This document shows, one piece after another, positions 1-63,762 of a stretch of 64,000 nucleotides of DNA; within the stretch, counting starts at the first letter, position 1, and each line of letters begins with the position of its first letter. This DNA comes from Heterodontus francisci (taxonomy: Eukaryota): assembly GCF_036365525.1 (NCBI RefSeq), contig NC_090396.1, positions 69,171,194-69,235,193 on the forward strand, given 5' to 3'. The notes below the pieces were generated by a model that worked only from the letters and a program-made list of their open reading frames with translations, made no database searches and was not told the DNA's origin. Both the position numbers and the translations under genes were made by a program.

Positions 1-815
1 TGCGACCAAACGTTATACCTGCCTTTGCCCCATATCCCTTAATACAAAAATCTATCACTCAGTTTTAAGATAAACAATTGATCTAGCATGAATTGTTGTT
101 TGCGAAAGTGAGTTTCAAACTTTGACCACTCTTTGTGTGTAGAAGTGTTTCTTAATTTCACTGCTGAAAGGTCTGGCACTATTTTTTAAACTATGCCCCC
201 GAGTCCTAGACTCCTCAACCAGTGGAAATCATTTCTTTCTATCTACCCTATCTGTTCTCCTTAATATCATGAAATCTTCAATCAAATCATCCCCAACCTT
301 CTAAATTCCAGTGCATACAACCCTAGTTTGTGTAATCTCTTCTCATAATTTAATCTTTGCAGTCCAGGTATAGTTCTAGCAAAATAAAAACAGACGATGC
401 TGGAAATACTCAGCATCGATAGAGAGAAAAATAGTGTTACCTCATCTGAACCCTTTCCCTCTCCATAGATGCTGCCTGACCTGATAAGTAATTCCAGCAT
501 TTTCAGTTTTTTTCAGATTTCCAGCATTTGCAGTATTTTGCTTTTGTATCATTCTAGTAACTCACCGTTGCACTCCCTCCAAGGCCAATGTATCCTTCCT
601 AAGATGTGGTGCCCAGAACTGCTCACAGAACTCCAGGTGTAGTCTAACCAGGGCTTTGTATACCTAAAGCATGACTTCAATCCCCTTGTGTTTTAGTCCT
701 CCAGCTATAAAGGCCAGCATTGTATTAGCCTTTTAGATTATTTTCTGTACCTGTTCATGATATTTTAATGACCTGTGTACTTGGACCTCCACTGTGTCTA
801 GCTTTTCACTATTTA
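1..815 (-). mobile_element. CR1 LINE 3' fragment, interrupted at ~381-546
   Basis: The minus strand encodes CR1 RT C-terminal motifs (PGLQRLNYEKRLHKLGLYALEFRRL). Confidence 0.8.
381..546. mobile_element. Degenerate palindromic copy of the hammerhead-bearing (Penelope pLTR-like) short element; ribozyme core lost
   Basis: Inverted arms atgctggaaatactcagc / ctgataagtaattccagcat match the copies at 43889, 51517, 60351 and 62492. Approximate TSD gtat(ag/ca)ttctag in the host CR1. Confidence 0.7.
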
Positions 816-3350: not shown

Positions 3351-4547
3351 CCATGAGTGTGAGCAACCCAAGCGTCTGATGAAGCTTTGCTTTTGGTGAG
3401 TTGATTGTTAACAGATATAGATGACTCACCTGCTGGGATGACCACTTATATCATTGAAGGAACCATGTTCTGGGTGTGCTGCAGCTGATGCAGTTTATAT
3501 TTGTGTGGAGCTGGAGAATAAAAATGAATTTTTCACGAATTGGAAACACTTCTGTGGAAGAAAATTATCGCATATATAAATTCTGATTTCAGTTGCTACT
3601 TGGAGGTACACTATAGCTACAGCCGATCGTACATTTCTACCCAGGTTCAAATTAAAATACTTTATCTGTTCATCTGCAAGGAGTTGTCTTACAGGATTAA
3701 AGGTGTAACCCAACTACAATAATCAATTAGCTGAATAGTGGCAAGGTCAACCAAGGACAAAATGTGCATGCATAATAGTAATTTTAAAATTAGACTTAAA
3801 AAATTGGTCAACTCAATGGGGCCCTCTTCCTATGGAGGGACTGACAGCATGGTGGAGATGAGAGGGAGGAGAGAGGAATGCAAATTTGTCTGTTCACATT
3901 GAAGGTGTTGAGAAAGGGAAGACAATTGTGTAAGGCTGGTTCTGAGATCATCAAGAAAAAAATTTGCAATGGAATTTCCTCAATTTATTTATTCTCCTGA
4001 GGGAGATGAATACCAGAGGAAACTTGAGATTTCTCGCTGACTCCTGAATAGTAACATCTATCATATGTTAGCTTTTATATACTGGGTATCTTCCATAGAT
4101 TTAATCTTGCCCTCGCTGCTAACCTGTAAATTGTTGTATGACTGTTGTTGACAGAACAGCGTTTGGAACAGATACAGCTGTTGGTCTATGAATAATACTA
4201 AACTCATCCATGCAGTGTAGCAAACCTGACCAAACCCAAAAACTAGTTGGAGTCTGGAAATGGTTCCTCAATTTTAAGGTAGTTTTGTTGTCTGACTTTG
4301 AAGGGAAGTAAAATTTTATACTGCAATAAAAAACACAACTGCATTGGTTGTTGGAATTTGCAGAATAGTTTCACTCCAACTAAAACTTTTCTGGTTTTAA
4401 GTTTCATTTCTCTGCCTGTTGAACATTTGTATAAATATCACTGTTTAACAAATATATGAGCAGTAAACCTAATTAGGTGCAATGGAAGTATTGTACTGAA
4501 AGGCAAGGTGTATGCCGAATTACCACACTGTTGCTTAATGCAATTCA

Positions 4548-4645
4548 TCTTCTTCTTTGGCCTCCTTGTCTCGAGAGACAATGGGTAAGCGCCTAGAGGT
4601 GGTCAGTGGTGTCAGTCGCTGTGAGGCAACTATGGAGTGACCTCT
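4548..4645 (-). mobile_element. Very short 3' terminal fragment of RTE-clade LINE
   Basis: Reverse complement of the 3' UTR and (GAA)n tail seen at 35530-35588. Confidence 0.8.
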
Positions 4646-5059
4646 CCATGGCAATTGGAACCCATTTTTGTATTGAAATTGCATTGCACTGAAAAATGTT
4701 GGTATTTATTTGAGTATAATGGATAGCTGGGAGTGATTTATAAATCAGTACAGTAATTCATGGACACAGGTAACATTTCAAGTTCTGAAATTGAGATTTC
4801 AAGCAGTTAATGGCAGTGATCTGAACCCTGGGGATTGGGTTACATTCTTAAAATTGTACCCTGGTATTTATTTGTAATAAGTACCATGTGAAATCTTGAA
4901 TGGAAATCTTTGCTTTTGGACACTTTTCTCTTTTGCTAGTAGCAGCTTCCTGTCCCCAATATGTGATGTTCACACAAGAGGATAAGTAGTTGAGACATTG
5001 CTTGTGTTGATTTATCAAAGTGATCTGCAATTACTTACCATGACGTTCCATACACATTT

Positions 5060-6585
5060 AACTAATCGGAACAGGAGTAGGGCATTCAGCCTCTCAGGCC
5101 TCTCCCACACATTTGTTAGATTGTGGCTAATCAGCATCTCAACTCCATTTACCCAACCTGTGTACATGTCATTTGAAATCTTACCTAACTCACATCAATC
5201 ACTCTTGGTCATTAAAATTTGAATTGACAGCCTTGTGTGAAAATGTTCTTCCTAATTTCATTCCTAACTGGCCTAGCTCTCATAGGATCATAGGAAATAG
5301 GAGCAGGAGTAGACCATTCAGCCTGTCGAGCCTGCTCCATCATTCAAACAGATCATGGCTGATCATCTATCTCGACGCCATTTTTCCCCACTATCCCCAT
5401 ATCCCTTGATGTCGTTGGTATTCAGAAATCTATCAATTTCTGTCTTGAACATGTTCAGTGATTGAGCTTCCACAGCCCTCTGGGGTAGAGAATTCCAAAG
5501 ATTCACCACCCTCTGAGTAAAGAAATTCCTCCTCATCTCAGTCTTAAATGGCCTGTCCCTTATTCTGAGACTGTATCCCCTTGTTCTAGACTCACCAGCC
5601 AGAGGAAACATCCTATCCACATCAACCCTGTCACACCCTGTAAAAATTTGTAAGTTTCAATGAGATCACCTCTCATTCTTTGAAACTCTAGAGAATACAG
5701 GCCCAGTTTCTGCAATCTCTCCTCCATCCCAGGGATTGGTCTGGTGAACCTCTGTTGTACTCCCTCTATGGCTAGTATATCCTTCCTTAGATAAGAAGAC
5801 CAAAATTGTACACAGTACTCCAGGTGCAGTCTCACCAATGCTTTATACAATTGCAGCAATACATCTTTACTCCTGTACTCAAATCCCCTTGCAATGAGGG
5901 CCAACATACTATATTTGCCTTTTTAATACTTGCTGCACCTGCATACTAGCTTTTAGTGACTCATGAACAAGGACACCCAGGTCTCTTTGGACATTAACAC
6001 TTCTCAATCTCTCACCATTTATGAAATACTCTGCCTTTCTGTTTTTTCTACCAAAGTGGATCACTTCACACTTACTCACATTATATTTCATCTGCCAAAT
6101 TCTTGCCCATTCACTTAGCCTGTCCAAATCCCCTTGAAGCCTCCTTTCATTCTGTCACAACTTGCATTCCCTCCTAGTTTTGTGTCATCCGCAAATTTGG
6201 AAATATTACAATTTGGCCTACTACAACTGTTTGAGCCCCTGAATTTTTCTTGTGGGTCTGCACTGTACCCCCTTCAAGACCAATCTATCCTTCCTGAGGT
6301 AAAGTGTCTAGAACTGAATGCAATATTCCAAATGGTATCTTACCAAAGCAGTATGCACCGGAAGCATAACTTTCTCACTTTTGTATTCCAACCCCCTTGA
6401 GATAAAGACCAACATTCCATTAGCCTTTTTGATTAATTTTTGGACCTGTGCACTAGATTTTAGTGATTCGTGTATAAGGACATCCAAATCTATTTGCTCC
6501 TCCACGTTGTTTAGTCTCTCACCATTACAAAAATATTCCAGTTTCTACTTCTGGGATTCAAGATGGATGACCTCACACACTGAAT
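5060..6585 (-). mobile_element. Nested CR1 LINE fragments
   Basis: ORFs 5363-6505 carry CR1 motifs (LVRLHLEYCVQFWS, KCEVIHFGRKN, RRNFFTQRVVNLWN). Confidence 0.85.
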
Positions 6586-6878
6586 AGTAGCACGGTGGAT
6601 AGGGGTGTGTCTCTGGATGTTGTCAAATGGACTTGTGGAAGGAATTTAACAGGCCTCCGCACAAGGGATTATCATCAAGAATGAAAGCGCATGGAATTGG
6701 AGGTAGCCTTGCAAAGTGAGTTGGTAATTGGCTGAAAGGTAGGAGATGAAGAGTCTGGGTAAAGGGAACATGCTCAGACGAGGGGGATATGACGAGTTGT
6801 GTTCCCCCAGGGATCTTTACTGAGGCTGCAGCTTTTCACCAAATATATTATTGACTTGGATGAAGGAATAGAGAGTAG

Positions 6879-6952
6879 TACACTGGACCCTGCTATAACG
6901 CAGTCCAGAGGGTCCATATCTTGAGACCTTGTTATAATAAGGCCCCAAAGTA
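6879..6952. mobile_element. Possible tiny Tc1/mariner (Tigger-like) MITE remnant
   Basis: TA-flanked imperfect inverted ends tacactggaccctgctataac / gttataataaggccccaaagta. Confidence 0.3.
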
Positions 6953-7039
6953 TTTGATGGGAAACCCATCTGACTTGTTATATTTTTGTTTCCTAGATCA
7001 ATCAGTATTTCCTCCCAGGCTAGGAAGATTTGTGTGCAT

Positions 7040-7270
7040 TGGACCCACTTGTAGCTGTGCCTTTTGCTGATACCAAGCACTCAGGATTGCACATATATGC
7101 ACTGTACAGCAGGAGTTACTGGACAACCAGCGGCAACCCTAGCAGGTTTGCCTCTTTCCTGACGCAGGGGTGCTGAGGTCAACTGAAATGCCTTTACTGC
7201 TGCCTCAGCAGAGCTCAGTGACTAAGCTGGAAGACTTCCTGACTTGTGTGTTTTAATATGACACCAGACA
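7040..7270 (-). mobile_element. Degenerate SacSINE1-like (DeuSINE) fragment
   Basis: Resembles the reverse complement of the element at 60290-60665 and the recalled SacSINE1 consensus (aggggtgctgaggtcaa…gctgcctcagcagagctcag). Confidence 0.45.
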
Positions 7271-9280
7271 AATCTTATTTAATGGAAAATTTTGGGGTCT
7301 GACACAGACCCGCATAATACCGAGTTATGCGCTATGGCAGGGTTGCCATGTATATCCAAGTTGGCAAATGGCGCTTGAGTCAGAAGTTTTAGAATTTGTG
7401 TAGATGGGAGCAGGAAATTTTCAAAGCGACATACACAGATTAAGTTAGTGGATAGAACTATGTTAGATGGTGATTGGAAGTGCATTCAGTCTATATAAAG
7501 AAGACAAAATGTTACTGGTATGAGGAAAGCTAAAAAAATAATTAAGGGGAGCATCTCAGTAACTTTAATATAGTTGTTAGAAATGGTAATGGAGCAGATA
7601 ATGGGCAAGGTGGACACATCTCCAGAGAATGGTGGTTTCCTAAAATACTAAAAGAAATAGGTGAGGAAATTGCAGATGCTTTCGCCCTAATTTTCCAAAG
7701 TTCCAAACTTTCAGGAATTGTGCCCTTGGACTTGGTTATTGTAAGTGCCACCTGTTATTTAAGAAGGGAGAGACCAGGCAAGTACAGATCTGCCACTTTG
7801 AAATGAGTTGTGGGAAAGGTATTGGAATCTACCATCAGGCACAGAATGGCTAAGCACTTGGAGACGTACTAGCTGGTCAAGGAGAGCCAGCATGGCTTTG
7901 TGTAAGGTAGGTCATGTCTGACAGTTCTAGTTGAATTTTTTGAGGAAATTGCTAGCATAGGACAGAGAGATCTGAGTTGAAAATCTTTAAATTGTGTACA
8001 GGTAGAAAGGCTATCAAAAGGCAAATATGATTCTGGGGTTTATATACAGAGATTGAGTATCAATGCAAGGAATTAATATTGAATTTGTATGAGATGTTAA
8101 ATCACTATTGGAGCATTGTGTGCAGTTCTGGATAACAAATTATATGAATACTACCATAAAATGAAAATTATATGTCAAAGATTCATCTTAAGTACACAAC
8201 TAATAAGAATATAGATTTGTTGTGAGGTAATTGAGTATTTTATGTAACTTGCTTTCAGTAAAGATTATTCAGTAATTAAGTTCTGAGTTTTGAGAATTGT
8301 CAGTGCATTTACTATTTTCCTTTTGCATGTGTTTTGTAACCCTTTTCACATTTGAGATATTTTATAAAGATTTTTCATAAGAAATTTTAATGAAGGTTCT
8401 TGTTGCATTTTTGCTTCAATTCCAATTAACTTAACAGTTAAGCACTGCAGTAGTATTTTGTTCTTTCAACTAGCTTTCTCTGAGTGTTGTATGGTTGCTG
8501 CATATTAAACCTGGCCTTTGAGTTCTATTTTTTACAGTTCTGCACATAAGCACCCACCCTTCGCCGCCCCCCACTCCCCCACTCTCCCACCCTGCCCTTT
8601 TGCGTGCCATGTTTAATTTTGGATTCTTTCCACATTTCAGTGCTATTTCAAATCCAAGTGGATTGCTAAATTATGTTTTTGCTTGCAACTGCAAAATGGA
8701 CAAGATGAAGTAATCACTAAATGACTACATTGTCATGGTGATTCTTGCCCATGTGCAGCAATGAGCACATGGTGTATATGATGTAGTTCAGATGTTACTA
8801 GTAATGGTCAGTGCTGTTAAGATTGTGCACTTATCTAGAATCATGTCAATTTGGAGTAATCTCCTGCAGCCAGATTAAGATTCACTCCAGTAAGAGGGGC
8901 GAATCCCAAATGCTTTATGTTAGTTCTACTTTTATAGGATACACTAGTTGAAATCATATGGTGTTACCTACAGTAAGTCGGAAGATACAGTGTTTTGTAA
9001 CGAGTGAATCAGACCAAGTATTGACGATGTAGTATAGTGTATAGTGTTGTGATGGAGGATCTCTCTGAATGGCCGATTGGATTAAAGCAAGAATGCCCAA
9101 TTTCTGGAAGTAAACAAATCCTGAGATCACTCTGAATTGAATTGTTTTTGTCAGGGAACTTTGCAGATTGTAATAGCATGAGAAAATCATGATACCAGCC
9201 AGGACTGACCAAACATGGAGCAAATTTGTGACACAGGAAATAAATGTAAAAAGCAGGGAGTGCCCACAGACGCAGGTCTT

Positions 9281-26001: not shown

Positions 26002-26237
26002 GTGTGCATCACTTGGCTTTCCTCAGCAAGGCAAAAAACTTGGAGTTAGAATATTTAGCGCCTAGTTCCCTTCGAGGCGTTTCTGAGAGGGGCTGATGTC
26101 AGGTTGTTGACATCTTGTTGCTCAGTAGCATTACCACTTGCATTTCAAAGACTGCAGCTGCCTTTCCCACCCCATATTGTTGATGCATGTCCAAAGGACA
26201 CCATTTCCTGCCCATTATCACCTGTGTTAAGTATAAT

Positions 26238-27822
26238 TTTTTTTTTATTTCCAAAATATACTTTATTCATAAAAATCTGTAAAAATTACATTTCCAAACA
26301 GTTTCAAAACAGCACCAAAAAATACAAACATTGCAAGGGAGATCAGTTTCCTTCAATACTATCATGAGTTTCTTCACAACCCTTCCGTTTCACAATTGTC
26401 ATGCCAATTACAGTTTTACATTTACAGCAAATGAAAATTTTCCCGATACAGTTCGAGGGGTTTCCCATGGATCCAGCCCCTCAGTTCAGCTTGGTGGGGG
26501 GACCTTACACTGTGGTCTTTCCCCATTGAGCCTTTGCTGCGGCTGCCCCAAGCTTTAGTGCGTCCCTCAGCACGTAGTCCTGGACCTTGGAATGTGCCAG
26601 TCTGCAACATTCGGTGGTGGACAACTCTTTGCGCTGGAAGACCAGCAAGCTTCGGGCAGACCAAAGGGCGTCTTTCACCGAATTGATAGTCCTCCAGCAG
26701 CAGTTGATGTTTGTCTCGGTGTGCGTCCCTGGGAACAGCCCGTAGAGCACAGACTCCTGTGTTACAGAGCTGCTTGGGATGAACCTCGACAAAAACCACT
26801 GCATCTCTTTCCACACCTGCTTTGCAAAGACACGTTCCAGGAGGAGGTGGGCGACCGTCTCTTCCCCACCACCGCCAACGCGGGATGACGTCGCCGTCTT
26901 CTGCTCGGATCCGCTGTCCGTGCGCAGACTGATGAGCATCTGCGACCAGTTCGAACTGGCCTCGGGAGCCAAAGTTAACCACGGCAAGAGCGAGGCCACG
27001 TTATTTGGGAACTGGGCTGACCGATCCTTTGTCCCCTTCACCGTCAGGTCAGATTACCTGAAGGTGCTGGGGATATAGTTCGGAAGGGCCGGGGCGTGCA
27101 CCAAAACATGGGAGGAGCGAGTAGCCAAGGTACGACAAAAGTTGGGCATGTGGGGGCAGCGATCTCTCTCCATTGTGGGTAAGAACCTGGTCATCAGGTG
27201 TGAGGCGCTCACGTTGTTGCTCTACGTGGCGCAGGTCTGGCCCATACCCCACTCCTGCGCTGTGGCAGTCACCCGAGCAATTTTCCGCTTCATCTGGGGA
27301 TCTAAAATGGACTGGGTCCGGAGGGACACGATGTTCAAATCTCTGGACAAGGGCGGGAAAAATGTACCCAACGTGGCCCTCATCCTGATGACCACCTTCG
27401 TGTGCGGCTGCATCAGGCTGTGTGTAGATCTCCAGTACGCAAACTCCACGTGTCACTATGTGCTGAGGTTCTATCTGTCCCCGGTGTTGCGAAGGATGGG
27501 CCTGGCCACATTGCCGCGGAACGCTCCATGTAGTTGGGCCGTGCCATACCACCTATCCTTCGTGGAGCAGTTTCTGTGGGAAAACACCTTTGACCACCGG
27601 TCCATCAGGCAGTGGTCTGCACGGAATGTCCTCAAGGCCCTACGGGAAAAGGAGACGGTGGATCCTGTCGGATGGTTCCCCGAGCAGACCGTCAAAGTCA
27701 TTTGGCGGAATGCCTCATCGGCAGAACTTTCAAACAAGCACCAAGATGTAGCTTGGCTGGTGGTGAGAAGGGCCCTTCCCGTCAGATTCTTCATGCACAC
27801 CCGAAGTCTCGCCCCCTCCGCA
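26238..27822 (-). mobile_element. Tx1-like LINE with 5' inversion (3' part on - strand 26238-26882; inverted 5' part on + strand 26883-27822)
   Basis: Highly similar to 20185-21908. Poly(T) at the left end and 16-bp TSD ctgtgttaagtataat (26222-26237 / 27823-27838). Confidence 0.92.
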
Positions 27823-28948
27823 CTGTGTTAAGTATAATGGCTGCAAATTCTCTCAAAATTTGTCAACAACTGCTGCAGGACTGCCGATAGCTCCTGAAGC
27901 CTTTACACAGTCAAGGACTTCACTTCTTTGTGATCCTGCCCAAATGTTTTATCCTGAAAAGTTACAATAGAAAATCTCTTCCTTCAGCTTGAATAGTGTT
28001 CTCTTAAACCTATGTCAGGTGGGGTACTGTAACATATCAGAGTATAATTTTGAACATAGAACTTCAGTGTTTTCTTTCTGCTGGAAGAATTACAATTCAG
28101 TGTTACTTTTTTTTAAAAGTTATGTCAAGTAAAAACCTGCTCAAGTTTGAAATAAGCGACTTGTTGTCAAGAGCTGCGTGACTGGATGTAGCAGTTTTGG
28201 TTGTTGAACCCTCCCTGCATATACTGATGTTGTAATTCTATCAAGCACATATATATGCGATTAAATGTAATTGAGATAGACAGTTGCTACCTCACAGGGC
28301 TGCTGTTAGGTATATGAATGGCTGGGTAAACTTCAACAGTGGCTTTTTAGATCAGGTTTCGACCAGTGACAGCTAAGATTAGTCCATTGTTGCAGCCTTC
28401 ACTCCAGCTAACCTGGAGGATGGAATGAACTGGGATTGGTTGGTTTTAGGCAATTGTAATCTGAAATTAATGAAAGGCAAGTGATATTGTTCAGGGTGGG
28501 TCAAATACTTTAAATTTAAGCATTGCTACCAGCTGTTACAAATTTGTTTTTAAATGCTGGTTTAAATGTTTCTCTACTCTGAAGAAGTCTTTAAAGTTGT
28601 TGGACACTGGACACTCTGATGGAGACTTGCACTTAGAGTCTCAATGGGCGATATGTGATGGGGCCCATCAGAGGGCAACTCGGATTATACCAAGTAGAAA
28701 TTGTCTTGGTGACTGGTCTTGGTGCTTCACGGTGCTATGTTCAGGAGTTGAGACTGGGGCTGATAGGAAATCAGCAGTCAATTTATGATTTTAATTTAGA
28801 TTGATATCAAAAAAATCTTATTAAAGTACACAACTAAGATTGCCACTTTGTTTGCCCCTGACACATCTAAACTCATCACCCTCTAATTATTCTGAAATTT
28901 GGTGCAGCACCCAATACCACTAAGTTCCTCCCATAGATGTTCCATGCC

Positions 28949-42156: not shown

Positions 42157-43888
42157 CTTGGTATCATGTAATGTGACAGGATTAGTTAATGACCGCAGAG
42201 TAAAGGCACCTTTAGTTAGCAGCGACCACAATATGATTGAATTTTACATCCAGTTTGAAAGAGAGAAGAGTGAGTCTAAGACTAGTATTTTAAACTTAAA
42301 TAAGGGCAACTATGTGGGCATGAAAGCTGAGCTAGCTGAAGTGAACTGGGTTACTCGGCTAGGAGATAGATCAATAGAGAAGCAGTGGCAGATATTCAAG
42401 GGGATATTTCAGAATACTCAGGATAAGTATATTCCTACTATAAAGAAAAATTCAAAGGGGAGGACCCACCATCCGCGGTTAACTAAAGAAGTTAAAGAAA
42501 GCATCAAACTGAAGGAGAAGGCGCAAAGATGAGTGGCAGGTCAGATGATTGGTCAGGATATAAAGAACGGCAGAGAATGACTAAAGGTTAATCAGGAGAA
42601 AGAAATTAGAGTATGAGAGGAAGCTAGCTGGAACTGTAAAAACGGATAGCAATAGTTTCCACAGGTATTTAAAAAGGAAAAGATTAGGTAAAGTGAGTGT
42701 TGGACCTCTAAGGTGTGAATGGGGAACTAAGGAAATGGCAGATGAAATAAACAAATATTTTGCTCCTGTCTTCACTATAGAGAATACAAAAACATTCCAG
42801 TAATAGCTGTAAATCAGGAGGTGGAAGGAAGAGAGGAACTTGGTGAAATTACAATCAACAGGGAAGTGGTCCTGACCAAACTGATGAAGCTGTGGGCTGA
42901 TAAGTCCCCGGGTCCTGATGGGCTTCATCCCAGGGTCTTAAAAGAGGTGGCTTATGAGGTAGTAGATGCGTTGGTGTTAATTTTTCGAAATTAGCTGGAT
43001 TCTGGAAAGGTTCCATCAGACTGGAAAATAGCAAATATAACCCCTCTATTCAAGAAGTGGGGGAGGCAGAAAACGGGTAGCTATAGGCCAGTTAGCTTGA
43101 CATCTGTCATGGGGAAGATGTTAGAATTGATCATTAAGGAGGCTATAGCTGGGCACTTACAAAAACTCAAGGTAATCGGGAATAGTCAGCATAGCTTTGT
43201 GAAAAGGAGATCACAATTAACCAATTTATTGGAGCTCTTTGAAGGTGTAACATGTGCTGTGGATAAAGGGGAGCCCGTTGACCTGCACTTGGATTTCCAG
43301 AAGGCATTTGACAAGGTGCCACATAAAAGATTATTGCGCAAAGTAGGAGCTCATGGTGTAGTGGGTCACGTATTAGCATGGATAGAAGATTGGCTGGCTG
43401 GCAGAAAACAGAGTAAGCATAAATGGGTCCTTTTCTGATTGGCAAGATGTGACGAGTGGAGTCCTGCAGTGATCTGTGCTGGGTCCTCAACTTTTTACAA
43501 TTTATATCAATTACTTCGATGAGGGGAGCGATGGCATGGTAGCTAAATTTGCAGATGAGACAAAGATAGGTAAGAAAGTATGTTGTGAAGAGAACATGAG
43601 GTTGCAGCTCGATATAGATAGGTTGAGTGAGTGGGCAAAAATCTGGCAGATGGAGTATAATGTGGGAAAATGTGAAGTTGTTCACTTTGGCAGGAAGAAT
43701 AAAAAAGCAGAGTATTGCTTAAACGGAGAACGACTGCAGAGCCCCGAGGTGCAGAGAGATCTAGGTGTTCTAGGGCATGAGTCGCAAAAAGTTAGTACAC
43801 AGGTACAGAAAGTAATAAAGAAGGCGAATGGAATGCTATCCTTTATTAGGAGAGGAATTGAAAATAAATGTAAGGATCTTATTCTTCA

Positions 43889-43994
43889 ATAATAAAAACA
43901 GGAAATGCTGGAAATACTCAGCAGGTCTCGCAGCATCAGTGGAGAGAGAAGCAGAGTTAATGTTTCAGGCCAGTGACCCTTCATCAGAACTGGC
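43889..43994 (-). mobile_element. Short Penelope pLTR-like element with minimal hammerhead motif (- strand)
   Basis: Reverse complement reads ccagttCTGATGAagggtcactggcctGAAACATTaact. Approximate TSD aa(g/a)gat(c/a)ttattcttca. Confidence 0.75.
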
Positions 43995-45309
43995 AAAGAT
44001 ATTATTCTTCAGTTATACAGAGCATTGGTGAGACTACATCTCGAATACTGTGTGTAGTTTTGGTCTCCTTATTTAAGGAAGGATGAGAATGTGTTCGAGG
44101 TGGTTCAGAGGAGGTTTACTAAATTGATACCTGGAATGAGTGGGTTGTCTTATAAGGAAAGGTTGGATAGACTGGGCTTGTTTTCACTGGAGTTTAAAAA
44201 AGTGAGGGGAGACTTGATTGAAGTTTATAAGATCCTGAATGGTCTTGACAATGTGGATGTGGAAAGGATGTTTCCTCTTGTGTGGTAGTCCAGAACTGGG
44301 GGCACTGTTTTAAAATTAGGGGTCGCCCTAATTTTTTTTCTCAGAGGGTTGTGCGACTTTGGAACCCTCTGCCTCAAAAGATGGTGGAGGCACGGTCATT
44401 GAATAATTTGAAGGCGGGGATAGATAGATTCTTGCTAGGCAAGGGAGTCAGAGGTTATCGGGAGTAGATGGGAGTGTGGAATTCAAGACACAAACAGATC
44501 AGCCATGATCTTACTGAATGGCGGAGCAGGCTCGAGGGGTCGAATAGCCTACTTCTGCTCCTCATTCGTTTGTTCGTGAAAAGGGGGAGACCGAGAAGAA
44601 GATTGAGAGATGACTTATCATACCTATGGACCACACTGGTGAGAACAGAAAGGGGTAGAGATAAATGGAAAAGGCATGAGGAGGGTAACATCCTACGGTG
44701 GATGAGCACAGCCTAAATGATGATGAATGATATATTTGTGTGTGTGTAATATATATATTCTCAATAATTGGATGTGTGAAATATCACTATATTGTCAATG
44801 CCATTACTTAGTCAATTTGCAGGAGTTATTTTGAATGGAGTGACTTGGAACCCTATCCTCTTGCTTCTGCAGTATTAGCTTTTATTCAATAATTATACAT
44901 GTTCCTAAATTATTAATAAAATTCATCACACTGCATTGAACTTTATTGTGGGAATGTAAGAATAAAAAAAATGGTGTTGCAACCATCCAGTTCACCGTGT
45001 CAGTTTGCTCATGCAGATCATTTTTAATCTTCCTTAAAATCCCAAAATAAACTTGGGCAATAGAGAAATGGTGTCATTTATAACTAGGGCAGGTCTCATA
45101 TACCCACGCGCCTGATAGGCTGGCATATACAAGTAACCATGGCACTGGTAAGCGATAGAAGCAGGTTATCCATATGAAGCAAAACACCCATAATTAAAAT
45201 ACATACAGGTTTTAACAAAGGAAAACACCAGTATCTCCTTTAAACAGAATGGCCTAGTTTAGTTTAATTCAAAGATTTCTTATTAACTTTTGATGCTGGG
45301 AATACTAAG

Positions 45310-51320: not shown

Positions 51321-51516
51321 TATAAAAGCTATCTTCCTCAAAGTTCACCGTGCTTTGAAGTTTTGTGTCATGTGCAAATTTTGTGCAGACCCAAATCTAG
51401 GTCATTAACATAGGCTAAGCAAGAGTCCTAATATCGACCCATGGAGAACCCCACTATATACTTTCCTCCAGTCCAAAAAACATCTGGCCATTCACTTAGC
51501 CAACTTTGTATCCATG

Positions 51517-51652
51517 CAGTTCCGATGAAGGGTCACTGACCCGAAACGTTAACTCTGCTTCTCTTTCCACAGATGCTGCCAGATCTGCTGAGTGATTCCA
51601 GCATTTCTTGTTTTTATTTCAGATTTCCAGCATCCGCAGTATTTTGCTTTTA
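51517..51652 (+). mobile_element. Short Penelope pLTR-like element with hammerhead-like motif (core variant CCGAUGA)
   Basis: cagttCCGATGAagggtcactgacccGAAACGTTaact; perfect 12-bp TSD tttgtatccatg (51505-51516 / 51653-51664). Confidence 0.8.
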
Positions 51653-53183
51653 TTTGTATCCATGTTGTTGCTCTCCTTTTTATTCCACGTGCGTCAACTT
51701 TGCTGACAAGCCTGTTATGTGGCACTTCATCAAATGCCTTTTGGATGTCCATTTACACCACATCAACTGCATTACCCTCATCAACCCTCCCTGTTACTTC
51801 ATCGAAAAACTCAATCAAGTTAGTTAAACATGATTTGCCCAAAACAAATCTGTGCTGGCTTTCCTTAATTATTCCATCTTTGTCCAAGTTACAGTTAATT
51901 TTGTGCCGGCATATTGTTTCTAAAAGCTTTCCCACCACCAAGTTAAACAGACTGGCCTATAGTTGCTTTTTTTTATCTTTAAACTCATTTTTGAACAAGG
52001 GTGTGACATTTGCAAATATCCAGTCCTCAGGCACGATCCCTGTATCTAAGGAGGATTGGAAGATTATGGCCAATGTCTCTGCAATTTCCATCCTTACTTC
52101 CCTCAGTATCCTCAGATGCATCTGATCCGGTCCTGGTAGACTAACACCTTTAAAGTACAGCCTGCCTTTCTCTATCAATTTTAGCCCATCCAGTGTGTCA
52201 ACAAGACAAGTAGACAGTCTCAACTAGACAGTGTCTCTAGATAGTTATTCAGTACTCTGTTGAGGTAGATGATCAACAATGATCTAATTGAAAGGTGGAG
52301 CAGTCCCGACCGGTGGAATGGCCTGCTTCTATTCCTATGTTCTTAACTACCTCCTCTTTCACTGAGGCTTTGGCAGCATCTTCTTCCTTGGTAAAGTCAG
52401 ATGCAAAGTAGTGATTTTGTACGCCATACATTCTGTCTCCACACGTAAATCTCCTTTTATGTCTCTAATTATCCCCACTTCTATTACTTTTACTGTTCAT
52501 ATGCCTTTAGAAGATTTTTGGATTCTCTTTTATGTTGGCGGCCAGTCTCTTCTCATAATCTCTTTTTACTGCTCTTATTTCTTTTTTCACTTCCCCTCTG
52601 AGTTTTCTATATTCATCCTGGTTCTCACTTGTATATTCAACCTGGCATCTGTATTATGCACCCCTTTTTCTGCTTCATCTTACTCTCTATCTCTTTCATC
52701 ACCCAGGGAGCTCTGGCTTTGTTTGTCCTACCCTTCAACATCCTGGGAATGTAAATCGACTGTACCCAAGCCATCTCCTCGTTAAAGGCAGCCTGCCAAA
52801 ACAGTTTTGCTTGCCAGTCTTCGATTCCAGTTTACTTGGGCCAGATCCGTTCTCACGCCATTTAAATTGGCCCTCCCTCAATTTATTTATTTTTATGCTG
52901 GATTGCTCTTTGTCCTTTTTCCATAGCTAACTTAAACCTTATGATACTATGATCACTGTCCCCTAAATGTTCCCATACTGACATTTGATCCATTTGTCCC
53001 ACCTCATTCTCCAGAACCAGATCCAGCAATGCCACCTTCCTCGTTGGATTGGAAATATACCAATGTAGAAAATTCTCCTGAACACCCTTTAGAAACTCTT
53101 GCCCCATCTGTCCTTTACACTATTATTTGCTGACTATATTAGGACAATTAAAGTCCCCATTACAATTACTCTATAGTTGATGC

Positions 53184-60289: not shown

Positions 60290-60665
60290 GAACAACTCAT
60301 TAGCTGTTCCCAGCCACAGCTGCAATGGCGGTGCTCCAACTGGCTATATTGTTCTGATGAAGGGTCACTGACCTGAAACGTTAACTCTGCTTCTCTCTCC
60401 ACAGATGCTGCCAGACCTGCTGAGTATTTCCAGCATTTCTTGTTTTTACTACAGTGCTCTGTTAGGGAAAGGAAAATTAGTTGGGGTTCCTGTTTCTGAC
60501 CGTTATTCAGAAAAACTGTGCATGGGTGGACGTCAGAATATGCCCCACAGTTGAACAACCTGACAGACTCACACATGAATAATAATATACTGGATGAGAT
60601 ATTGGAGGGAAAACAGTGCCCCTGGGACGGTGTCAGTGATGGAGTCAACACATGCAAGAAAGGAA
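60290..60665 (+). mobile_element. Degenerate SacSINE1-like (DeuSINE) copy interrupted by a hammerhead element
   Basis: ttagggaaaggaaaattagttggggttcctgtttctgaccgttattcag…gtggacgtc…ctcacacatgaa resembles the recalled SacSINE1 consensus. Confidence 0.5.
60351..60448 (+). ncRNA. Minimal type-I hammerhead ribozyme motif (60351-60386) at the end of a short Penelope pLTR-like element
   Basis: gttCTGATGA-agggtcactgacct-GAAAC-GTT-aac: intact core boxes, stem II, palindromic AACGUU stem III, stem I guu/aac. Confidence 0.7.
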
Positions 60666-62491: not shown

Positions 62492-62706
62492 TAAAAGCAA
62501 AATACTGCAGATACTGGAAATCTGAAATAAAAACAAGAAATTTTGGAAATACTCAGCAGGTCTGGCATCATCTGTGGAGAGAGAATCAGAGTTAACGTTT
62601 CAGGTCAGTGACCTGATGAAGGGTCACTGACCTGAAACGTTAACTCTGCTTCTCTCTCCACAGATACTGCCAGACCTGCTGAGTATTTCCAGCATTTCTT
62701 GTTTTA
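62492..62706. mobile_element. Head-to-head palindromic Penelope pLTR-like element with hammerhead core at its centre
   Basis: Inverted arms of ~85 bp; CTGATGA at 62613-62619 followed by agggtcactgacctGAAACGTTaac. Confidence 0.8.
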
Positions 62707-63762
62707 ATTTTTGTTTATTCAACTAGTGTTTCCTTTCCCACCTCCTCTTCCTGGCTCTTTCGACCTGACTGTTCTGTTCCCATTTGCAACAACCGTGCTA
62801 CAGGAATGTTGCTTAAGTTTCTTAAAAGTTCATGCAGCTGAGCTGTGCAAAAGGTGAGGCAGGCAACTTAATTGCTGAGAGAATATTGATTCCAATAAAT
62901 TATGTAGGTGAAAAATGTAGCTTTGTTTCTAAATATAGGTATGTTGTAGGTTTGTTCAGTTTGTAAAATAGATTCATTAGCTAAGACTCATTGACTACTA
63001 TTTAGTATATTTAAAAAAAATTAGTCTAGCCTGCTTTGTTTCTTGGTAAAAGAACAAAGAATTGCTGGAGTTTTTGTATTTTGTTTTTAAGTGTTTGCTC
63101 TTTGCCACAATTGTCTCTTCAGGACTGTCACAAATAGGACAGTTTGATTTTCAAGTAAACAGCTTCTTAATCAAACGCTCAGTATTGAACCTGTTGTTAA
63201 TCTGGGGAAGGGGTTTCATGGAAATGATTTGGAGGGGACTTTTAGCCAACAATCCCCCCTTCTTGTTGGAAGTGTATGATTTGAATTCAGGACTGGACTT
63301 TTGTACATCATGTGCTCTCATTGATGTCATTATTTCAGAATAATAGACTGGCATCATTCACTTATGATTTTTCTCTCAAATATTGTAGCTTCTGGCAGTG
63401 GTGTTTTTCTACACTTTCTGTGTAATATTTTTTCTTTAAAAAAAGCAATACTGAAGATTAAATAAATTTGGAAATAACAGCTGTTTTATTTACAGTGGCA
63501 TTTGTGTCTTTGGCTGGATTGACCTATTATTTGTAATGTTTCTAAAATTAATACCCTAACCACACCTATCAATGTACCAATGCCCAAACCACTTCTATCA
63601 GCGCTTGTTTCAAAGGAACTTTTAAATTTTATTTTCATGTTGCTCACTTATTTAATTTTTCTTAGAACTAATTTGTTTCTATATGATATATACTGGAGTT
63701 GGAAAGCCCCTTTTGAAAAAAGGATTGTGCTGGATTTTCAGACTTTTTTTGTCTTGTTCCAG

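What the first reader, a model, noticed from the sequence alone, without database searches (positions are those of the whole stretch)
60351..60448. A mobile family of tiny elements carrying a minimal hammerhead ribozyme (5 copies in 64 kb)
Seen in sequence: copies at 381-546, 43889-43994 (-), 51517-51652, 60351-60448 and 62492-62706. The last four contain CUGAUGA-A-GGGUC(ACU)GACCY-GAAAC-GUU, or a 1-2 nt variant of it. Stem I is formed by (A)GUU/AAC(U) and stem III is a loop-less palindrome (AACGUU). Several copies have TSDs (a perfect 12 bp at 51505/51653), and the element boundary falls within a few nt of the ribozyme 5' strand. No coding capacity. Established: Penelope-like retroelements carry minimal type-I hammerheads in their pseudo-LTRs that cleave as dimers, and non-autonomous retrozymes exist. 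Inference: this is a high-copy, non-autonomous, ribozyme-bearing retroelement of sharks mobilised by a Penelope RT/GIY-YIG. It is easily misannotated as a generic SINE or MITE.
Basis: partly seen in the sequence, partly recalled or inferred. Interest (0 to 1): 0.8.

Follow-up and report, generated by a model that had tools for sequence, protein, structure and literature searches.

The report
Penelope retroelement tails with minimal hammerheads
These short repeats are broken-off tail ends of a very abundant Penelope-like jumping gene that carries a known type of tiny self-cutting RNA motif, not a separate mobile family; the one less ordinary point is that many copies begin at the same spot, probably where the element's RNA starts.

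Summary
The five loci are real and four carry a minimal type-I hammerhead core. They are not an independent non-autonomous family. The same 136 bp is the 3' end (pseudo-LTR: hammerhead plus 34-bp 'tail') of an autonomous Neptune-type Penelope-like element (RT + GIY-YIG); a full pLTR-ORF-pLTR copy was fetched from this genome. A 0.70-Mb sample gives 49 loci (about 4x10^5 genome-wide). Short and long copies interleave on a tree (24 changes, about 25 shuffled), so short copies are by-products of autonomous masters. This arrangement, including dispersed single motifs in fish Neptune elements, is published (Cervera 2014), and this scan has noted it in other shark-like genomes. Less ordinary: 20 of 55 sampled 5' ends fall within +5..-7 of the core's first base (about 14-fold enriched) and none at the cleavage site. 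A TATA-like box lies about 30 nt upstream here and in 5 of 9 distant families. Best reading: RT primes internally at the tail on uncleaved mRNA and runs off its 5' end, leaving promoterless, mostly dead copies. One 252-bp retrozyme-like tandem array exists elsewhere in the genome. Cleavage is untested.

The parts
60351..60448 (+). 5'-truncated PLE 3' end without tail (-3..~+94; numbering from hammerhead C3 = 0 at 60354)
   Evidence: 91.8% to the full-length element L032
60351..60385 (+). minimal type-I hammerhead: helix I GUU/AAC (3 bp left), CUGAUGA 60354-60360, bulged A, helix II 60362-60366/60370-60374, GAAA 60375-60378, palindrome ACGU, predicted cut after 60382
   Evidence: sequence, pattern; the MFE fold keeps helix II but mispairs the core
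51517..51652 (+). youngest-subfamily copy, -5..+130 with tail; core CCGAUGA (U4C); 100% identical 136-mers elsewhere in the genome
51505..51516 (+). 12-bp TSD, repeated at 51653-51664, inside a LINE fragment
43889..43994 (-). copy -7..+96 without tail; helix-III CpG decayed (ACAU); 17-bp TSD at 43872-43888 and 43995-44011
62492..62614 (-). inverted arm with tail (+130 to about +9)
62611..62710 (+). direct arm without tail (core 62613-62641, helix I 5' strand lost); pairs with the other arm as a long hairpin
381..546 (.). older inverted pair (minus arm 382-439, plus arm 455-545 with tail), no hammerhead core, about 12-bp TSD

Best explanation
The loci are 5'-truncated insertions of an autonomous Neptune-type Penelope-like retroelement whose 3' pseudo-LTR holds a minimal hammerhead and a 34-bp tail (shown). 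The GIY-YIG domain nicks AT-rich DNA and RT starts inside the RNA at +96 or +130, the two ends of the tail (inferred from the two 3'-end classes and the Anolis PAc biochemistry). The main transcript probably starts in the upstream pLTR at about -7..-2, roughly 30 nt below a TATA-like box. RT primed on that 5'-proximal site runs off the mRNA end after 100-137 nt, and the short cDNA is integrated with a TSD or folds back or anneals into a head-to-head pair (inferred). The templates were not cut by the ribozyme, because the copies keep both sides of the cleavage site. The short copies lack the promoter and decay. The hammerhead is kept only in the master lineage, where it may act as a dimer or with protein help. 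Confidence: about 0.95 for truncated PLE ends, about 0.85 for not being a separate lineage, about 0.5 for run-off at the transcription start.
For: Parent: 136-bp query hits extend 5' to the ORF. L032 is pLTR (360 bp, 97.5% identical)-ORF-pLTR with hammerheads 3291 bp apart. The protein has DKG, YIDD, a CX4CXXC linker and YIG; Pfam RVT_1 E 1.9e-5, GIY-YIG only E 0.28. Ends: 3' ends 32 of 55 at +123..+130 and 19 of 55 at +92..+102; tail on one arm only in 18 of 20 inverted pairs. 5' ends 20 of 55 in +5..-7, rate ratio 13.6, p 7e-14; 13 of 43 non-inverted loci, ratio 11.4; none between +25 and +42. In two similarity-picked sets 16 of 44 start at -6..0 and the next at -33. Lineage: 24 label changes against shuffled means 25.1 and 25.3; 196 and 177 of 500 shuffles as low. 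Promoter: best TATA-matrix hit at -35 in 35 of 45 long copies and in -41..-30 in 5 of 9 distant families, shuffle mean 1.13, p 0.0013; YCAGTT with A at -4 is initiator-like (consensus recalled). PMC11167929: internal initiation at the two tail ends; uncleaved RNA is the main substrate.
Against: No RNA 5'-end data: the laid runs are contigs and show no start or end piles. The hot-spot bin and the TATA window were chosen after seeing the data, and the hold-out had only one family (1 of 1, p 0.13). The shark box is non-canonical (TTATAA/TTAAAA) and the matrix values are recalled. The same bases read as a branch point plus 3' splice site (CTAAY...YAG|TT), and D. virilis Penelope has its intron end at helix I and a TATA-less promoter (PMC4209133, PMC2377424). 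5' ends scatter over about 7 nt, with no consistent cap-derived G on inspection. The tree has 97 columns and 43 of 67 inner branches are unresolved.
Confidence: 0.8

Rival explanations
1. The short copies are a self-propagating non-autonomous SINE or retrozyme family, transcribed and re-mobilised in trans.
For: Defined ends and TSDs; they keep the putative RT start sites; identical 136-mers exist. A 252-bp tandem array at C1110 fits the operational retrozyme definition (preprint 10.64898/2026.07.22.740005).
Against: There is no short-specific clade; short:long is 16:26, 9:5 and 13:17 in the three subfamilies. Short copies lack the TATA-like box. The array was 1 of 30 loci fetched, and its unit (-33..+218) differs from the dispersed copies.
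Confidence: 0.1
2. The 5' pile-up marks a 3' splice site at helix I, or a hard RT pause on a longer RNA, rather than the transcription start.
For: TTTCTAA (-19..-13) and CAG (-5..-3) are nearly invariant in 45 long copies. The D. virilis intron ends at helix I (PMC4209133). An upstream strand can pair with the core in the young subfamily.
Against: The extra bases between TSD and copy are unrelated to each other, with no shared exon 1 (by inspection). The branch A is only about 10 nt from the AG, short for vertebrates (own knowledge). No splice-type joint among the 15 joints shown, 6 not shown.
Confidence: 0.3
3. The repeats are MITEs, i.e. terminal inverted repeats of a DNA transposon.
For: Two window loci are long inverted repeats.
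Against: The arms are unequal (tail on one only), most loci are single arms (43 of 49), TSDs vary (12-17 bp), and the sequence is continuous with an RT-GIY-YIG ORF.
Confidence: 0.01

Closest known systems
Minimal hammerheads (min-HHR) in pLTRs of metazoan PLEs, including fish Xena, Poseidon and Neptune (Cervera & de la Pena 2014, PMC4209133)
   Same: Type I; short helix I; unpaired base between 9 and 10.1; palindromic 15.2-16.2 with no loop 3; mostly single dispersed motifs 'probably related to truncated PLEs'; some opposite-strand pairs.
   Different: Helix II is 5 bp; the 10.1-11.1 pair goes A-U, G.U, G-C across subfamilies; the young subfamily has U4C; about 4x10^5 loci against 4,000-9,000 motifs reported for coelacanth and Xenopus (different counting methods).
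PAc (Poseidon, Anolis) mechanism (Frangieh et al. 2024, PMC11167929)
   Same: Two internal RT start sites define the tail; AT-rich targets; uncleaved RNA as template; hammerhead at the pLTR-ORF junction.
   Different: Here the clade is Neptune-type and the first in-frame ATG lies downstream of the tail. A 5'-end pile-up at helix I was not reported in the parts read (Fig. S2 not seen).
Non-LTR retrozymes as PLE derivatives (Li, Clavereau & Pollet, bioRxiv 10.64898/2026.07.22.740005)
   Same: pLTR-derived, hammerhead-bearing, non-coding; reported in one chondrichthyan; the 252-bp array at C1110 is of this kind.
   Different: The window copies are dispersed, 5'-truncated monomers or inverted pairs, not tandem units.

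Membership tests
EN+ Penelope-like element | single ORF with RT and C-terminal GIY-YIG | tested here: met
   parent L031/L032, (GIY-YIG below the Pfam cut-off; YIG and CCHH-type residues seen); no ORF piece in the window
EN+ Penelope-like element | partial-tandem pLTRs with a hammerhead in each | tested here: met
   L032, 360-bp pLTRs
EN+ Penelope-like element | 30-40-bp tail at one end; inverted 5'-truncated copies | tested here: met
   34-bp tail; 18 of 20 inverted pairs asymmetric
Neptune clade | CX2-5CXXC linker between RT and EN | tested here: met
   CNRRRCNTC in P0001; criterion from PMC8557442 (Nematis also has a linker finger)
Neptune clade | RT phylogeny with reference Neptune elements | not tested
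   no named reference proteins were fetched
min-HHR | core CUGANGA/GAAA/UH, bulge after A9, palindromic helix III, short helix I | tested here: met
   90.7% of cells paired; same plan in distant families
min-HHR | covariation in helices | tested here: inconclusive
   only pair 10.1-11.1 (GC 42, GU 14, AU 29, AC 0 of 87); score 0.153, 14 of 500 shuffles as high, and the copies are related
min-HHR | self-cleavage as dimer or with protein | not testable with these tools
   needs an assay; no genomic 5' ends at +29
non-autonomous SINE-like family | own lineage of short masters | tested here: not met
non-LTR retrozyme (window copies) | tandem units each with a hammerhead | tested here: not met
   met only by the C1110 array
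non-LTR retrozyme | circular RNA intermediates | not testable with these tools
   only contigs available

The most novel reading that the evidence does not exclude
In Neptune-type PLEs a TATA/initiator promoter places the mRNA 5' end at the first strand of hammerhead helix I. Because RT primes internally only 100-137 nt downstream, the commonest product is a run-off, strong-stop-like cDNA that integrates directly. Roughly a third of about 4x10^5 loci in this genome would then be a fossil map of the transcription start, and evidence that the hammerhead is not cut on the template in vivo. This geometry may be conserved from sharks to invertebrate elements.
Probability: 0.45. Interest if true: 0.5.

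Novelty: new member of a known kind. Interest (0 to 1): 0.3.

Why it matters
As a family this is an expected shark-type example of a class described in 2014. It still matters for annotation: it covers about 3% of the sampled DNA (22,020 of 702,861 bp), no Rfam hammerhead model picks it up, and its inverted pairs mimic MITEs or pre-miRNAs. If the run-off reading holds, it joins the 2024 internal-initiation result to a simple account of why minimal hammerheads occur as vast numbers of single dispersed motifs. It also bears on the open question of what PLE hammerheads do: the integrated templates were uncleaved.

Tried and rejected
Rfam: no hammerhead family among 13 matches; the miRNA and snoRNA hits are below gathering score, and the top ones come from the 62492 hairpin. 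PDB sequence search with P0001: 0 hits. Pfam on the 376-aa piece: 0 families. An own-genome search with 60354-60447 returned nothing, although the window itself holds it; the tool skips very common words. An apparent 5'-end cluster at +25/+26 looked like cleavage products, but in 5 copies inspected it is a later insertion of another element; rejected. Core versus flank conservation: 435 of 452 versus 2358 of 2551 (p 0.0025), but about half of the flank columns are as conserved (0.96 or more) and the gap comes from subfamily and CpG columns, so this is not evidence of selection on individual copies. One search used a mis-registered structure and is replaced. Folding does not favour the active monomer or dimer (helix II about 2% in two array units); nearest-neighbour models are weak for this. 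RNA contigs hold the sequence in 21 listed runs, most only guessed to be RNA. They cannot show starts, circles or expression, and the reference's 1-nt deletion in helix II distorts depth there. Viral contigs gave no relatives. Lunse et al. 2017 is not held.

Full report
Numbering: C3 of the hammerhead core is 0; the predicted cut lies between +28 and +29.

OBSERVATION. Five loci (seven arms) are present at the stated coordinates. The exact core pattern matches twice against 0.04 expected; 51517 differs by U4C and 43889 by a CpG change in the ACGU palindrome. 381-546 lacks the core. 381 and 62492 are head-to-head inverted pairs. TSDs of about 12, 17 and 12 bp at 381, 43889 and 51517 are supported by LINE paralogues without the insert (27, 52 and 6 flank pairs); none could be tested for 60351 or 62492. 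The window is otherwise LINE- and LTR-like debris by my reading of the ORFs, with no Penelope ORF piece. Rfam gives no hammerhead match.

PARENT ELEMENT. Searching the 6.0-Gb genome with 51517-51652 returned 44 scored matches of 284 candidates, and 30 loci were fetched. Their 3' ends coincide while many run 5' into a shared sequence that ends an RT-GIY-YIG ORF. L032 (C276) is pLTR-ORF-pLTR: 360-bp repeats, 97.5% identical, hammerheads 3291 bp apart, one in-frame stop. L031 gives a 756-aa open frame with DKG, YIDD, CX4CXXC and YIG motifs, Pfam RVT_1 E 1.9e-5 and GIY-YIG E 0.28. Its closest named relatives are elasmobranch proteins at 66-73%. The linker finger points to the Neptune clade (PMC8557442, passages); no tree with references was built.

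ABUNDANCE AND ENDS. 72 fixed-position 10-kb stretches of contigs C1-C30 (702,861 non-N bases) were scanned with an HMM of the 3' end. I kept hits of at least 40 bits that reach +78, dropped 7 split or edge-cut hits and hand-corrected 19 5' ends over all sets. That left 55 arms in 49 loci: 4.5 per 64 kb, about 4.2x10^5 genome-wide (Poisson 3.1-5.5x10^5, if the sample is representative). 3' ends are bimodal: 32 at +123..+130 (the model ends at +130; BLAST shows flanks diverging at +129..+132), 19 at +92..+102 and 4 elsewhere. This is the PLE tail. In 18 of 20 inverted pairs from all loci only one arm has it. 5' ends: 20 of 55 lie in +5..-7 (0.037 per nt against about 0.003; ratio 13.6, p 7e-14, bin chosen after seeing the data), 13 of 43 among non-inverted loci and 14 of 38 among the best-scoring. 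None lies between +25 and +42. In the two similarity-picked sets (duplicates removed) 16 of 44 start at -6..0 and the next at -33. An apparent +26 cluster comes from another element inserted at the GTT triplet.

NOT A SEPARATE FAMILY. On 87 arms (49 long, 38 short; 97 columns) the short/long label needs 24 changes against shuffled means of 25.1 and 25.3. Four sets of identical rows span both groups, and all three subfamilies contain both kinds. Resolution is low (43 of 67 inner branches open), but nothing suggests short masters.

RIBOZYME. The plan matches the min-HHR of PMC4209133 (parts 1-2 of 4 read): bulge after A9, palindromic 15.2-16.2, short helix I. That paper reports such motifs in fish Neptune elements and as dispersed singles 'probably related to truncated PLEs', with no monomer cleavage and low dimer cleavage. 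The 10.1-11.1 pair is G-C 42, G.U 14, A-U 29 and never A-C, which suggests structural constraint on masters. It is one lineage path, and overall covariation is marginal (55 of 82 available arms aligned). The helix-III CpG is intact in 59 of 87 arms. Core columns are about as conserved as typical flank columns, so individual copies decay. U4C lowers activity in vitro (PMC3088659, passage) and also occurs in distant families. Folding does not favour the active state. Activity is untested.

MECHANISM. PMC11167929 (parts 1-2 of 4; supplement text search empty; figures not seen) shows RT starting inside the RNA at the two tail ends, with uncleaved RNA as the main substrate. If the mRNA starts in the upstream pLTR just before helix I, priming at the 5'-proximal tail gives 100-137-nt run-off cDNAs, which are the sizes seen. 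Long copies have a C-rich box, then TTATAA/TTAAAA (best TATA-matrix hit at -35 in 35 of 45) and YCAGTT with A at -4. In relatives from metagenome and MAG contigs (91 loci, 21 hammerhead hits, 10 families, 9 with 100 nt upstream) the best hit falls in -41..-30 in 5 of 9 families, shuffle mean 1.13, p 0.0013. Before merging families it was 7 of 10. The window was set, the matrix is recalled, and the hold-out was one family. A TATA plus initiator-like pair in a pLTR was also noted in a rotifer element (PMC3846280, passages). The main rival is a 3' splice site at CAG|TT, as in D. virilis (PMC4209133; PMC2377424, passages). I saw no shared exon-1 bases ahead of short copies and no splice-type joint among 15 of 21 joints listed, but contigs cannot settle this.

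RETROZYME-LIKE ARRAY. At C1110 a 252-bp unit (-33..+218 of the pLTR-ORF junction, 97.6% to L032) is repeated about 3.3 times on one strand and 8.3 times on the other, at 99-100% match. It fits the tandem criterion of bioRxiv 10.64898/2026.07.22.740005 (parts 1-3 of 5; supplements closed and may list related chondrichthyan units), in which 1 of 9 tested Xenopus dimers cleaved.

NOVELTY. The kind is known. Six literature searches showed no listing that describes this family or the 5'-end pile-up; the library lacks most subscription papers, Repbase and Dfam were not available, and Lunse et al. 2017 was seen only as a reference title (review PMC6765202, passages). Earlier notes of this scan report the same kind in other shark-like genomes, one of them also noting starts just before the motif; none matched the words for the promoter/run-off reading, and none exist for this genome. 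Verdict: new member of a known kind, interest 0.3.

Noticed in passing
L050:7552-9147, L132:3057-3678, L132:4741-5475, L107:2903, L074:6776: In five older copies another element with ends like GGGCTGAATTTT...AAAATTCAGCCC (MITE/Harbinger-like by recall; about 3-bp duplication where both ends are seen) sits at +26..+28, on the GTT cleavage triplet of the palindrome.
   Followed up: partly
L034:8424-10000 and L035:1-1341 (G000:C1110): 252-bp tandem array of the pLTR-ORF junction, about 11.6 units with an internal inversion, each full unit carrying the hammerhead; retrozyme-like.
   Followed up: partly
L003, L006, L012, L015, L040, L056, L032 5' pLTR: Weaker second cluster of 5' ends at about -216..-250, at a poly-T/TTCAG stretch; may be microhomology or a second start.
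   Followed up: no
L109:1497: A copy that continues into the ORF has its upstream pLTR starting at -4, as expected for a complete cDNA of a transcript starting there.
   Followed up: partly
L032:3570-3610 (minus): Several pyrimidine-rich YAG motifs resembling 3' splice sites lie at and after the tail, one directly before the first in-frame ATG.
   Followed up: no
window:56845-57904: About 1.06-kb imperfect palindrome (74% identity) of LINE-like sequence.
   Followed up: no
window:20313-21908 and 26237-27823: Two 96% identical copies of an L1/Tx1-like 3' fragment, one with an internal inversion.
   Followed up: no
window:11302-13581: 759-codon open frame of a CR1/L2-like reverse transcriptase, apparently young.
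   Followed up: no
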